The translations under genes were made by a program, and so were the position numbers. The notes under the pieces are model-generated. The model made no database searches. It had not been told where the DNA came from and saw only the letters and a list, made by a program, of their open reading frames with translations. From Eledone cirrhosa (taxonomy: Eukaryota), in assembly GCA_964016885.1 (NCBI GenBank), contig OZ024760.1, forward strand, positions 19,778,001 through 19,842,000: a stretch of DNA of 64,000 nucleotides. The letters are read 5' to 3'. The number at the start of each line of letters is the position of its first letter. The first letter of the stretch is position 1. Positions 21,351-57,481 of this stretch are shown one piece after another.

Positions 21351-21596
21351 TATCAAAAGGAAAATCTGAAGGCAAGGTAAAATTCCAATGATTTTAATCA
21401 CGACACATGTTTCACTCTGTGAGTGAACATTGCTAATTTTCTCCCTCATATCAAGAATTTGAAGACAATTCATTTTCACCTGATGAGATCAGTGATAATT
21501 GATCACGGCTTTACGATCGATCTATCTCTTATTGAAACATGTGTCGTGATTAAAATGATTGGAATTTTACCTTGCCTTCAGATTTTCATTTTGATA
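21351..21596. mobile_element. Fold-back element with 64-bp inverted arms carrying an HHR
   Basis: Arms 21351-21414 and 21533-21596 match at 62 of 64 positions. Confidence 0.8.
21476..21549 (+). ncRNA. Hammerhead ribozyme, intact core, GUC site
   Basis: TCAC-CTGATGA-[GAT C AGTGATAATTGATC loop GATCGATCTATCTCT T ATT]-GAAA-CATGTG-TC-GTGA; predicted cleavage after 21545. Confidence 0.75.
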
Positions 21597-22011
21597 TATA
21601 TATATATATATATATATATACATATATATATATATAGTAATGATAATAAATGTGAAGACTAAAATCCGAAGAGGGCTCGATAAGGATAATATATATATCA
21701 AAATATATAAAACCATAGAGCAGTTTCAGAAGATCCCGTTAAGGGTGAAAGCAGCGATTCTTTGCTTAAACTTTAATCTGATATTTTAATAAATAAATAT
21801 ATATATATATACATTTTTGTTTACCTTTTACATACATATGTTTGTGTCTGGGTGTGTGTGTGTGTGTGTGTGTGTGTGTGCATGTGCGTGTAGTAGAGTA
21901 TGGATATACTATAAAAAGTCAGGACCCAACAACTGAGCTGTTGAAACAGCAAGAGCTCAACCATGGGTCCTGACTGTTTATAATATATATATATATATAT
22001 ATATATATATA

Positions 22012-22152
22012 TGAGAGTTGACCTCAAATGGCTAAGACTGGAAGAGGAGATGATGAAGAACTGCAACAAGTGGAGAGATGCCGTGTTTGGAAGGACCCGT
22101 CCAACCCATGCTAGCATGGAAAAGCAGCCATAGAAACGACGATGATGATGAT
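22012..22152 (+). mobile_element. RTE LINE extreme 3' end
   Basis: Translates DLKWLRLEEEMMKNCNKWRDAVFGRTRPTHASMEKQP*, followed by (GAT)n. Confidence 0.7.
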
Positions 22153-22511
22153 GCTTAAGAGGAAATCTATTGTATTCCTTAAATTTAGTTCTAAAGCTCT
22201 CACCTCTCAGACCCCTAAATAGATTGTTGAAATATCCATCTGTAAAAACCATTCATTTTTCTTTCAAGTTACAGAACGAGATAGAAAATGGAAATTATTC
22301 TGGTTTTATCTGAAGTGTTAAAGAAAGGTTTATTGAAAGTCTGTGAATGGATTGGGTCTAATTGGAATGAAGGAATGAAAGAAGAAAACAATACAAATAA
22401 ATTTATGAATAAATATTTTAATTTTTTACTACAGAATAAAATATTCATTCTAAAGAAAACTTCAAGAATTTTAATTGTTTTTTGGGGTAACATTATAATT
22501 ACTATTATCAT

Positions 22512-23170
22512 TTCCCGCCGAGGTTAACTTTACCTTTCATACTTACGGGGTCGATAAAATAAAGTACCAGTAATACACTGGGTAATTGCTGGCCTTGTGC
22601 CTAAAGTAGAAACAATTATTATTACTATTACTATTACTTCTATTACATTCTGAGTTCAAATTCTGCAGAGGTTAACTTTGCATTTCATCCTTACAGGGTC
22701 GATAAAATAAAGTACCAGTAATACACTGGGTAATTGCTGGCCTTGTGCCTAAAGTAGAAACAATTATTATTACTATTACTATTACTTCTATTACATTCTG
22801 AGTTCAAATTCTGCAGAGGTTAACTTTGCATTTCATCCTTACAGGGTCGATAAAATAAAGTACCAGTAATACACTGTGATCAATTTAATCGATTTTCCCC
22901 TCCACTAAATTGTTGGCCTTGTGCCTAAATCAGAAACAATTCTTCTACTTCTTCTTTTTATTATTATTATTATTATATTATAGGGTAGTGGTTTGGCAGT
23001 AATCGGTGAACGTCAGACACCATGCTTTGCAGCATAGAGTTATGGCCCTTTACGTTCTGAGTTCAAATCCTGCCGAGGTTAACTTTGCCTTTCATCCTTA
23101 CAGGGTCAATAAAATAAAGTACCAGTAATGTACTGGTAAATTGCTGGCCTTGTGCCAAAAGTAGAAATAA
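22512..23170 (+). mobile_element. Tandem partial SINE A units followed by a full SINE A (22983-23170)
   Basis: The 3' half of SINE A is repeated three times, then a complete copy follows. Confidence 0.8.
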
Positions 23171-23624
23171 TAATTATTATTATTATTCTAAATTTCAATA
23201 GAAAATGAATGAAGATCTTGAGACATGTGTGAATATGATTAGTGTGCAACTCTCGTTGGTATCTTCCAATCAATAAACCCTACTACTCACAAGTCAATAT
23301 ATTCCAAGGAGTCAATTATTGTTTTGACAGACAAAAGAAAAAGTTTACTTATGGGAAGAAAAAAGAAAGAAAGAAAGAAAAAAAATTAAATTAAATAAAA
23401 ATAAAATTTTCAAAAAATAAAATAGAAGGAATTTTAATAAAAGCTAAACCAGCCAGAAGGAAAACTAAGGAAATTTGGTGAAAGTTAAAATAGATTATAT
23501 CTATTAATACATAGTACAAAGACAGACGTCTCTAACAAATTTTAATTTCTTGCAAATTTTCTTTACAAGACAAAGATACTGTAATAAATTATATGCAGAT
23601 ATACTGTTATATAAGCAATTGTTT

Positions 23625-54720: not shown

Positions 54721-55060
54721 GGAGGCACATGGCTTAGTGGTTAGAGCATTTGCCTTGCAATCGAAAGGTTGTGAGTTCAATTCTCAGACCGGGTGATGTG
54801 TTGTTTCCTTGAGCAAGACACTTTATTTCACATTGCTCCAGTTTACTCAGCTGTAGAAATGAGATGATAGGAACTGGGGTCCATATCATTCCACTGTAAA
54901 GTGGTCGTGGAGGTGCCACGGCAAAAAAGCACCCAGCACTCACTGTAAATGAGGTTGGTGTTAGGAAGGACATCCAGCTGTAGAAATCAAGCCAGAATCT
55001 GTTCCCGTCCCACCCTTGCAAGCAGGGAAAAAGCGGACGTAAAAATGAAATGATGATGAT
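54721..55060 (+). mobile_element. SINE family C, full length
   Basis: Matches 20129-20476. Confidence 0.85.
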
Positions 55061-55234
55061 GAAATGATTTATGACCAGTCCAAGCATAAGGTGAAACAAT
55101 TGTTCTCGGTATGGTGAACTAACTGTTGTGTTACTACTTATATATATATATATATATATATATATATATATATATATATATACATGTGTATTAATTCAAA
55201 TATTAACAAAATAGATATTCTTATGATCAATTAA

Positions 55235-55299
55235 ATTTTATTATACATAGTTCAGAGGTACTGAATTAAGTTCAACAGTACGTCCTCATCAGATAAAAT
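55235..55299 (-). ncRNA. Hammerhead copy with GAAA to GAAC mutation
   Basis: Reverse complement of 56135-56199 except A15.1 to C. Confidence 0.6.
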
Positions 55300-56134
55300 A
55301 AAATGATAGATGGTTAAAATTTAATCAAGGTAGTGATTAACTTATGAGAAAACTCAATATTTATACCCTATTATTGAGAACATAAGAAAACATAATAGAA
55401 TCAATAGAGAGAGTGTGAGTAATATATTTTAAGAAATACATGGCATCAATGCAACAGTTATAGAATTATTAATATTTAAAATACTACTATAGATCTATGC
55501 GGTAGAGGAAAGTATAGAGGAAGATGTAGCTGAAGTTATAACTTATTTAGTATTTAGCTTGAGAAGACAAATGACAGATAATTAAAGAGAGGGAGAGACA
55601 GTCCTTTAAATTTGTTTTCATAAAATTTTGAATTTTAGAAATTTAACATAATTATATTATAATATTAATACAAATACCCATCAACTTTTAAAACCTAAAA
55701 TTTTGATTCTTTACCCTGAAATAACATAAGTTAAATATTTTGAAAATTAACCGCCAAAACTATATATGATTATGTGTGTATAAAGAAATTTGAACATAAA
55801 TTACTCCACTTTGACTCTCCCTCTCTTTAATTATCTGTCATTTGTCTTCTCAAGCTAAATACTAAATAAGTTATAACTTCAGCTACGTCTTCCTCTATAC
55901 TTTCCTCTACTGCATAGTTCTATAGTAGTATTTTAAATATTAATAATTCTATAACTGTTGCATTGATGCCATGTATTTCTTAAAATATATTACTCACACT
56001 CTCTCTATTGATTCTATTACGTTTTCTCATGTTCTCAATATTAGGGTATAAATATTGAGTTTTCTCATAAGTTAATCACTACCTTGATTAAATCTTAACC
56101 ATCTATCATGTCAGGGTATGTCATGTATCATTTT

Positions 56135-56199
56135 ATTTTATCTGATGAGGACGTACTGTTGAACTTAATTCAGTACCTCTGAAATATGTATAATAAAAT
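56135..56199 (+). ncRNA. Hammerhead ribozyme, intact core, AUA site
   Basis: ATTTTAT-CTGATGA-[GGA C GTACTG loop CAGTAC C TCT]-GAAA-TATGTA-TA-ATAAAAT. Confidence 0.75.
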
Positions 56200-57481
56200 T
56201 TAATTGAATATCTATTTTGTTAATATTTGAATTAATATTAATAACTCTGGAAAATATTTTTCCTGTAGAGTGCTTCCAATCTATTGTAAAACTCATTCTT
56301 TGATGTACTCATTGAATCTTGTTTAACTCTTTAATATACATGTATATATGTATATATATACATGTGTATGTATATATATATATATATATATATATATATA
56401 TATATATGTATATACATATAATGTATATATATACATGTATATACATGTGTATGTATATATATATATATATATTGTGACCTCTGGCGCCACGCAGTAATAC
56501 AGAAGACCCGACTTCCTAACAGAAGTCCAGCGAGCTTTTGTTTCCAGGGTCGGACCAGAAAGATACACATCGAACCTTGGACTGATCAATAGCAAAATGC
56601 GCGCCAGTACTCAATAAACATAATGAAGCCCTAACAAATCGTCCTTTTATTATTACTATATATATATATATATATATATATATATATATAAATAAATACA
56701 TACATATATATATATACATATATATATATATATAAATACATATATATATATGTATATATATATATATACATATATATATATATATATATATAAATGATAA
56801 ATATATAAATGATAAATACATATATATAAATACATATACATATATATATATAAATACATATATATAAATACATATATATATATATAAATACATATATATA
56901 AATACATATACATATATATATATATATAAATACATATATATAAATACATATACATATATATATATATATATAAATACATATACATATATATATATATATA
57001 AATACATATATATATATATATAAATATAAATACATATATATAAATACATATATATATATATATATATATAAATACATATATATATATATATATATATATA
57101 TATATATATATATATATATATATATATATATAAATACATATATATAAATACATATACATATATATATATATATATATATATATAAATACATATATATAAA
57201 TACATATACATATATATATATATATATATATATATAAATACATATATATAAATACATATACATATATATATATATAAATACATATAAATACTTATACATA
57301 TATGTATATCATCATCATCATCATTTTACATCCGCTTTTCCCTGCTTGCACTACCTCTTTATCTCTCTCAATCTCTCCTTCTCACACTATCTTCCCCCCC
57401 CCCACCTTCATTTCCTCTCTCTCAATCTCTCATCCTCTTCTTCATTTCACACTTTTTTTTTTTCACCATCTCTTCTTCTCC

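What the first reader, a model, noticed from the sequence alone, without database searches (positions are those of the whole stretch)
21351..56237. A system of fold-back elements carrying outward-facing hammerhead ribozymes
Seen: three sequence-unrelated families (21.4, 29.3/47.9 and 55.7 kb) are inverted repeats whose arms contain an HHR motif (CUGAUGA...GAAA...NUH, with helices I-III pairing). At 29.3 and 55.7 kb both arms carry the full motif; at 21.4 kb the left arm has only its 3' half, and at 47.9 kb only the left arm reaches it. Orientation is always minus in the left arm and plus in the right, so the 5' ends join at the apex. They encode no protein and sit in or next to (AT)n tracts. 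Established: Penelope-like elements carry minimal HHRs with palindromic helix III in their pseudo-LTRs, which can be inverted, and retrozymes are non-autonomous HHR retroelements. Inference: these are non-autonomous PLE-mobilised ribozyme elements whose insertion creates or copies a head-to-head hairpin. A read-through transcript would mask the ribozyme with its own antisense arm, whereas divergent transcripts from the apex would each carry an active copy.
Basis: partly seen in the sequence, partly recalled or inferred. Interest (0 to 1): 0.9.

Follow-up and report, generated by a model that had tools for sequence, protein, structure and literature searches.

The report
Capped strong-stop fold-backs of Penelope retroelements
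The hairpin-shaped repeats are short head-to-head end pieces of three Penelope-like jumping genes; in the largest family most arms stop at one fixed spot that is likely the capped start of the element's RNA, not at the ribozyme cut, while full-length copies run past that spot as if copied from a likely circular RNA.

Summary
The fold-backs and hammerhead motifs are real, but they are not a separate ribozyme element. They are paired 3' ends (pseudo-LTRs) of three Hydra-clade Penelope-like retrotransposons; longer genomic copies enclose the RT-endonuclease ORF. The architecture is published (inverted copy, one-sided tail, opposite-strand hammerheads), and this scan found it before in three other windows. 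New here is the mechanism read from many copies: 87 of 91 pairs join a tailed to a tail-less arm; 61% of family-B arms that reach a site 124 nt upstream of the ribozyme cut stop there, often with an extra G (15 of 25; cap signature), while 93% read through the cut; both arms of a pair behave alike (30 of 31); none of 18 ORF-side copies that reach the site a second time stops. Best reading: twin priming on an uncut capped RNA makes fold-backs; a closed, probably ribozyme-made circular RNA makes long copies. No RNA data or cleavage test.

The parts
21222..21602 (.). Family A fold-back insertion in (TA)n: two head-to-head ends of a Hydra-type Penelope-like element
   Evidence: family pattern 763 exact genome hits; longer copies continue into the endonuclease-coding end
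21222..21414 (-). A left arm, tailed type (from GAAA of the ribozyme to +182); tail about 21222-21344
21414..21602 (+). A right arm, tail-less type (ends at +59)
21472..21553 (+). Type I hammerhead motif, intact core, helix III ACAUGUGU, predicted cut after 21545 (GUC)
29033..29475 (.). Family B fold-back insertion in (TA)n; 21-nt rearranged spacer at the apex
   Evidence: family pattern 14,280 exact hits
29033..29278 (-). B left arm, tailed type (ends at +136; tail 29033-29115); intact hammerhead, CUGAUGA from 29223, predicted cut after 29169
29300..29475 (+). B right arm, tail-less type (ends at +53); begins exactly at the fixed stop (likely transcription start, 124 nt upstream of the cut), preceded by G
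29359..29433 (+). Type I hammerhead motif, intact core, palindromic helix III AUGCGCAU, predicted cut after 29423 (AUA)
47815..48024 (.). Older family-B subfamily fold-back with perfect CATATG apex (47988-47993); left arm tail-less with broken core (AAAA for GAAA); right arm only about 35 nt
55189..56336 (.). Family C fold-back insertion in (TA)n; both arms run far past the start site (long type); apex near 55600
   Evidence: family pattern 270 exact hits; parent ORF in L111, L112
55189..55600 (-). C left arm, tail-less type; hammerhead with broken core (GAAC for GAAA), CUGAUGA from 55292
56047..56082 (+). Candidate promoter of family C: TATAAA at 56047, initiator-like TC|ACTAC with the A at 56078, where family-C arms elsewhere stop
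   Evidence: 7 of 22 distinct arms start there
56134..56200 (+). Type I hammerhead motif, intact core, helix III AUAUGUAU, predicted cut after 56192 (AUA)
56238..56336 (+). Tail of the family C right arm (sequence that precedes the ORF in the parent)

Best explanation
Each fold-back is one insertion of a Hydra-clade Penelope-like retrotransposon that consists of two 5'-truncated element ends joined head to head, likely made when the element's enzyme nicks both strands of a (TA)n target and starts reverse transcription twice on the same RNA. Shown: the arms are pseudo-LTR ends of elements that encode a telomerase-like RT plus C-terminal endonuclease; one arm ends at a near site and the other at a far site (the tail); in family B most arms that reach a site 124 nt upstream of the ribozyme cut stop there, often with an extra G, and nearly all read through the cut. 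Inferred with less certainty (about 0.55): long and more-than-unit copies come from a template with no end at that site, most simply a circle made when the two hammerheads of a full pLTR-ORF-pLTR transcript cut as a dimer and the monomer is ligated. In the fold-backs the two ribozymes face opposite ways, cannot form that dimer in cis, and are likely passengers.
For: Parents: long minus/plus pairs enclose an about 800-aa ORF with the Hydra motifs of Craig 2021; best fold match TERT; C and A copies lead into homologous ORF pieces. Twin priming: tailed + tail-less in 42 of 45 B, 24 of 25 A, 21 of 21 C pairs; in L032 each arm holds sequence the other lacks; arms of one element differ by a median 1.3% against 6.6% between elements, same subfamily in 47 of 55 pairs; in vitro a Penelope-like enzyme extends both strands from two internal RNA sites that bound the tail (Frangieh 2024). 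Strong stop: 4,356 of 11,147 copies continue 5 nt past the site (18 of 30 inspected are true stops) against 14,135 of 15,187 at the ribozyme cut; extra G 15 of 25 against 7 of 53 at other ends, Fisher p 7e-5; TATA box 31 nt upstream of the family C stop. Two templates: pairs are stop/stop 14, through/through 16, mixed 1; 0 of 30 ORF-side copies end at the site and 18 pass it; none of 18 regions of 10 kb is a two-unit array.
Against: No RNA data and no cleavage assay; Rfam does not score the B and C motifs and arm folding is not better than shuffles (z -0.7 to -1.1). Core conservation across subfamilies is only weakly supported (0 of 11 core columns variable against 22 of 140 others). Junctions at the ribozyme cut are barely enriched (about 45 against 26 at one control site, p 0.06), so in-vivo cutting is not shown. 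The stop is sharp in B but weaker in A (6 of 36 ends) and C (5 of 30 ends), and the extra G is not significant in C (2 of 7). L286 and L287 show template jumps, which could replace a covalent circle. Four of 91 pairs are tailed on both arms. The endonuclease fold was not confirmed by structure, and Pfam gave no hit.
Confidence: 0.8

Rival explanations
1. Same fold-back origin, but long copies come from a linear RNA: the RT jumps from the RNA 5' end to a 3' pseudo-LTR (strand transfer or end-to-end jump), or uses read-through transcripts that begin upstream. No covalent circle; the ribozyme is incidental or only trims RNA.
For: L286 has a +478 to +1 jump in both arms and L287 a jump from near the stop to +754; hammerhead mutants do not affect insertion in vitro and no RNA ends were found at the cut in lizard (Frangieh 2024); Naiad elements make partial tandems without canonical hammerheads (Craig 2021).
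Against: A jump that works for 39% of arms on first arrival would have to work 18 of 18 times on second arrival; both arms of a pair share the outcome in 30 of 31 cases; no two-unit donor array among 18 regions.
Confidence: 0.35
2. The short fold-backs are a dedicated non-autonomous retrozyme- or MITE-like family that is copied as a whole hairpin unit.
For: 563 copies share one exact 36-nt apex; short arms hold the start site and both priming sites, so some might serve as secondary templates.
Against: The apex follows from ATAT overlap of two arms that stop at the same base and recurs in different subfamilies; other junctions differ in their letters; all six larger subfamilies contain stop and long arms in similar shares; both outer ends lie at the two fixed priming sites; family C arms that begin at the start lack the upstream TATA box.
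Confidence: 0.06
3. One priming event followed by hairpin self-priming at the palindromic apex copies the first arm back on itself (self-priming proposed for rotifer Penelope palindromes).
For: High arm-to-arm identity; palindromic CATATG apex; Arkhipova 2013 reads such palindromes as self-priming.
Against: In L032 the tailed arm and the tail-less arm each hold sequence missing from the other; tail-less arms often reach further upstream than their tailed partners (L003, L132, L140, L142, L148, L160); an extra G stands before both arms in L199/L200. Later deletions at the palindrome centre could explain some, not all, of this.
Confidence: 0.08
4. DNA transposon derivatives (MITEs with a TA target) or assembly artefacts.
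For: Terminal inverted repeats flanked by TA.
Against: Long inverted-repeat-bounded copies enclose a reverse transcriptase, not a transposase; ends are asymmetric; arms differ by point changes; contigs of independent public runs show strand-switch joints in family A.
Confidence: 0.01

Closest known systems
Hydra clade of Penelope-like elements (Craig et al. 2021, PMC8557442)
   Same: Single ORF with RT and C-terminal endonuclease, RWx, DKT, CxCX5C, CxxC and CxH motifs, hammerhead in the pseudo-LTR, insertion in (TA)n.
   Different: Unit of 3.9 kb (published: generally under 3 kb) with an asparagine-rich linker insert; at least 15,000 ends for one family, where the paper found only a small number of further families; tails of 80-120 nt instead of 30-40.
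Canonical Penelope insertion unit: partial tandem, adjacent inverted 5'-truncated copy, one-sided tail (Arkhipova et al. 2013, PMC3846280; Craig 2021 Fig. 2 legend)
   Same: Head-to-head inverted arrangement, tail on one end, TATA/initiator-like motif in the pseudo-LTR.
   Different: Here both arms are often minimal and stop at one capped-looking site; the published reading is self-priming on an antisense template or endonuclease resolution, not twin priming with a strong stop.
Penelope hammerheads, including dual motifs 100-700 bp apart on opposite strands (Cervera and de la Pena 2014, PMC4209133)
   Same: Type I topology, palindromic helix III suited to dimers, opposite-strand pairs; that paper proposes circular templates.
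   Different: Longer helix II (32-47 nt region) and 6-8 nt helix III palindromes; 10.1-11.1 is G-U or A-U, not the usual G-C; genomic evidence for two template types is added.
Poseidon_Ac in vitro mechanism (Frangieh et al. 2024, PMC11167929)
   Same: Both strands nicked and extended, two internal RT start sites that bound the tail, uncut RNA as main template.
   Different: Different clade; that paper's main text does not address where the cDNA ends or how inverted and more-than-unit copies form.
Non-LTR retrozymes (Cervera and de la Pena 2020, PMC7229834; Li et al. 2026 preprint)
   Same: Type I hammerhead, Penelope origin, no protein in the short units.
   Different: Retrozymes are head-to-tail tandem repeats with same-strand ribozymes and circular RNAs; these are head-to-head pairs.
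Minus-strand strong-stop DNA of LTR retroelements (recalled, no call)
   Same: Priming near the RNA 5' end, short cDNA that ends at the cap.
   Different: Primed by nicked target DNA on both strands and fixed in the genome as a hairpin; no tRNA primer or integrase.

Membership tests
Penelope-like elements, endonuclease-positive | Telomerase-related reverse transcriptase in one ORF | tested here: met
   800-aa ORF with YRDD; model pLDDT 78.5; best Foldseek hits TERT 3du5 and 6zdq. Intact only for family B; C and A parents seen as broken pieces.
Penelope-like elements, endonuclease-positive | C-terminal GIY-YIG endonuclease | tested here: inconclusive
   Invariant Y, YxG, R, H, E, N pattern among homologs fits; no Pfam hit; the separate domain fold was not returned.
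Penelope-like elements, endonuclease-positive | Pseudo-LTR from partial tandems, inverted 5'-truncated copy, one-sided tail | tested here: met
Hydra clade | RWK-type, DKT, CxCX5C linker, CxxC and CxH beside the conserved E and N | tested here: met
   RLRWT, SDKTN, CNCRIKNKC, CNLC...E...N...CLH in family B; same pattern in C and A pieces
Hydra clade | Insertion into (TA)n and hammerhead present | tested here: met
Hydra clade | Placement in an RT tree with named Hydra members | not tested
   No named reference sequences were held
Type I hammerhead ribozyme | Core CUGANGA / GAAA / NUH with helices I-III | tested here: met
   4 intact motifs in the finding, 2 broken; null 0.03 per window
Type I hammerhead ribozyme | Rfam Hammerhead_1 gathering score | tested here: not met
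   12.8 of 34 bits for A; nothing for B, C
Type I hammerhead ribozyme | Self-cleavage | not testable with these tools
   No assay; junctions at the cut only marginally enriched
Non-LTR retrozymes | Head-to-tail tandem units each with a same-strand hammerhead | tested here: not met
   Pairs are head-to-head
Non-LTR retrozymes | Independent non-autonomous lineage | tested here: not met
   All six larger B subfamilies contain short and long arms
MITE / TIR DNA transposon | Symmetric terminal inverted repeats and a transposase partner | tested here: not met
   Ends asymmetric in 87 of 91 pairs; partner ORF is an RT

The most novel reading that the evidence does not exclude
The genome records a two-template life cycle for Penelope-like elements. 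A capped, uncut transcript is primed twice near its 5' end and dies as a strong-stop hairpin; only a transcript long enough to hold two hammerheads cuts itself as a dimer, is closed into a circle, and is copied more than once round, which rebuilds the pseudo-LTR and its promoter. The dimer-dependent ribozyme would be the length sensor that separates productive from abortive transposition.
Probability: 0.45. Interest if true: 0.82.

Novelty: new member of a known kind. Interest (0 to 1): 0.58.

Why it matters
The elements are ordinary in kind, but how Penelope-like elements make inverted copies and tails, how they rebuild the pseudo-LTR (Schostak 2008: 'no obvious mechanism') and what their hammerhead does (Craig 2021: 'still unclear') are open questions. 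A family with over 15,000 ends gives numbers: a fixed capped-looking stop, no stop at the ribozyme cut, matching behaviour of the two arms, and no stop on the second pass. These yield exact coordinates for 5'-end mapping, circle junction PCR and an in-vitro test, and near-intact ORFs exist to supply the enzyme. The apex of such hairpins may map the promoter of any Penelope-like family from DNA alone.

Tried and rejected
Rfam scan of the whole window: only low-complexity microRNA-type noise among the 150 rows shown of 432; focused scans as above. DNA search of the genome with a 131-nt arm found nothing (the tool skips very common words), so exact patterns were used. Pfam: 0 families for 4 ORF pieces and for 16 aligned proteins, although precomputed PF26215 is listed for 12 of 18 homologs. 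PDB sequence search: nothing significant. Viral fold library: generic polymerase matches only. Separate fold of the C-terminal domain: submitted, not returned. Sequencing runs: no RNA holder listed; contigs of three runs gave no start or end information. No PLE ORF in the window itself. First pair count used a duplicate filter that merged distinct loci and a wrong class limit for C; it was redone by coordinates. Apex at the ribozyme cut: rejected. Sequence-intrinsic RT block at the stop: disfavoured, since ORF-side copies pass it. Look-ups of earlier scan notes: none for this genome, none for the two-template wording.
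Full report
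SETTING. The window lies on contig C21 of a 3.0-Gb, AT- and microsatellite-rich genome. The taxon was not determined. Positions in elements are given relative to the predicted ribozyme cut (+1 = first base after it); alignment tables count the last base before the cut as 0, so their -123 is 124 nt upstream.

1. OBSERVATION. The four inverted repeats exist, minus arm left and plus arm right, in (TA)n. A type I hammerhead descriptor finds 5 intact motifs in the window (21480+, 29223-, 29369+, 56142+, and 10803+ outside the finding) against a mean of 0.03 in 60 shuffles (the descriptor was written after seeing these motifs). Helix III is self-complementary in all three families, does not fold alone and pairs as a dimer, as described for Penelope hammerheads (Cervera 2014). 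Rfam gives only a weak Hammerhead_1 match for A and none for B or C. Each element extends further than stated because one arm has a tail.

2. WHAT THEY ARE. Exact patterns give 14,280 (B), 270 (C) and 763 (A) genome hits, with 0 for reversed controls; these are lower bounds biased to young copies. Widely spaced minus/plus pairs of B enclose an ORF of about 800 aa (L031; also L037, L036) with YRDD and the Hydra-clade motifs listed by Craig 2021 (section read; alignment). Its predicted fold matches telomerase RT best. Family C pairs enclose broken ORFs 55% identical to B over 301 aa; family A arms run upstream into the homologous C-terminal domain at 33-46%. So the arms are the 3' ends (pseudo-LTRs) of three related autonomous Penelope-like elements. 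The window itself holds no such ORF.

3. RULES FROM MANY COPIES. (a) Two fixed outer ends per family: B +53 and +136, A +59 and +182, C about +46/55 and +158, each in a short TA-like motif. (b) Among held loci, head-to-head pairs number 45 (B), 25 (A) and 21 (C), tail-to-tail neighbours 1, 2 and 1. One arm is tailed and the other not in 42 of 45, 24 of 25 and 21 of 21; the other four are tailed twice; one B pair printed as tail-less twice was a locus-edge artefact (L027/L028) and is counted as mixed. Unpaired arms (29 of 119, 17 of 67, 18 of 60) include long ones whose partner may lie beyond the fetched flank. Most B loci come from the first 45 Mb of contig C1. Of 15 perfect-apex elements 13 are clearly mixed and 2 are damaged. 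(c) Arms of one element differ by a median 1.3% against 6.6% between elements and share a subfamily in 47 of 55 pairs (27% expected), yet in L032 each arm holds sequence the other lacks. (d) A fixed 5' stop: 11,147 copies carry the 22 nt that start 124 nt upstream of the cut, but only 4,356 (39%) carry the 5 nt before them; of 30 inspected, 18 are true stops, 17 beside an inverted partner, 11 read through and 1 reads through with a point change. At the ribozyme cut 14,135 of 15,187 (93%) read through, and most inspected exceptions are point changes. True junctions at the cut are about 45 against about 26 at one control position (p 0.06). 563 elements have the exact symmetric apex. (e) The base before the stop is G in 15 of 25 arms against 7 of 53 at other 5' ends (Fisher p 7e-5); some of these G could come from the partner arm, and 14 of 26 remain by an automatic filter. 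An extra G at full-length L1 5' junctions reflects the mRNA cap (PMC11702581, passage). In family C, 7 of 22 distinct arms begin at TC|ACTAC, 31 nt below a conserved TATAAA, but the G excess is not significant there (2 of 7). In A the cluster near TC|ATATG is weaker (6 of 36 ends). (f) Among the first 100 listed hits, pairs are stop/stop 14, through/through 16, mixed 1 (p 2e-8). (g) 197 copies read from the tail into the ORF. Of 30 inspected none ends within 5 nt of the stop and 18 pass it; 15 of these arms, in 13 insertions, were checked to span the ORF, and none of 18 regions of 10 kb is a two-unit array (p about 5e-6 if the first-pass rate applied). (h) All six larger B subfamilies hold stop and long arms in similar shares.

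4. MECHANISM. Shown: the structures and counts above. From published work: a Penelope-like enzyme nicks and extends both target strands and starts at two internal RNA sites that bound the tail, on uncut RNA (Frangieh 2024, main text read); the start site lies in the pseudo-LTR (Schostak 2008). Inferred: both nicked ends are primed on one RNA, one at each site; on the capped linear transcript both cDNAs stop at the cap or earlier and are joined by microhomology, often the ATAT overlap. Inferred with less certainty: long copies use a template without that end. A circle made by dimer cleavage at two hammerheads and ligation explains read-through at the cut, more-than-unit lengths, the absence of a second-pass stop and rebuilding of the upstream promoter; circles were proposed before as a tentative idea (Cervera 2014). 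The main rival is template jumping on linear RNA, for which L286 and L287 give single examples. The 55.7 kb element has a candidate TATA and start in both arms.

5. COMPARISON AND NOVELTY. Inverted truncated copies with a one-sided tail are standard for this class (Craig 2021, passages; Arkhipova 2013, passages), opposite-strand hammerhead pairs 100-700 bp apart were reported in Schistosoma, and Hydra elements are known to carry hammerheads and target (TA)n. This scan noted the same kind of fold-back in three other windows. They are not retrozymes, which are head-to-tail (Li 2026 preprint, first fifth read; Cervera 2020, passages). I found no paper on a capped strong stop, twin priming or first- versus second-pass behaviour in Penelope-like elements in ten searches of the open library (listings only unless stated). 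Subscription papers (the 2005 and 2006 reviews by Evgen'ev and Arkhipova, and Lunse 2017, all recalled and not seen) and the supplements of Craig 2021 and Frangieh 2024, which I did not read, may hold these families or part of this model.

6. VERDICT. Real, but new members of a known kind; the value lies in the mechanistic record. Interest 0.58.

Noticed in passing
window 46682-47004: A fifth fold-back between (TA)n runs with a tail of about 60 nt on the left arm and no CUGANGA core; the family recurs as fold-backs in many held loci. Likely a hammerhead-less Penelope-like end (Naiad-like, untested); a natural control for the ribozyme's role.
   Followed up: partly
window 390-785: Two copies of an abundant repeat of about 190 nt with a tRNA-type B-box joined head to head between TA runs; single copies occur at about ten other places in the window. 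Looks like a tRNA-derived SINE; whether a Penelope-type enzyme moves it is untested.
   Followed up: no
window 11297-11480: Short fold-back with a one-sided extension; the family has 164 alignment hits in held loci, mostly as fold-backs. No hammerhead core seen.
   Followed up: partly
window 10725-10900 and 47437-47596: Another hammerhead family (short helix II, helix III ACGU, GUU cut); intact at 10803+, CUGAUAA at about 47502.
   Followed up: partly
window 47047-47147 (minus): A 101-nt unit between TA runs with a hammerhead whose G12 is changed here but intact in other copies; several copies have the same two ends.
   Followed up: partly
window 21637-21795: Small repeat between TA runs next to element A; its two parts occur in inverted arrangement in other loci.
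   Followed up: no
L286:4090-5000 (G000:C1 near 331.69 Mb): Complex insertion in which both arms carry a junction from +478 to exactly +1 and one arm also begins exactly at +1: a possible trace of a ribozyme-cut RNA with end-to-end jumps.
   Followed up: partly
L031:1615-5347: The ORF-bearing arm starts at +138, right after the tail end, so it is exactly one unit long.
   Followed up: partly
held loci, 1.17 Mb: The descriptor finds 140 distinct hammerhead sequences from more than a dozen families with different helix III palindromes: this genome holds many more ribozyme-bearing Penelope-like families.
   Followed up: no
window 9363-9473: Degenerate palindrome with CTGATGA on both strands but no matching GAAA half and no copy in held loci.
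   Followed up: partly
L031 ORF residues 580-656: Asparagine/threonine-rich insert of about 70 aa between RT thumb and endonuclease, absent from the 15 aligned homologs and unstructured in the model.
   Followed up: no
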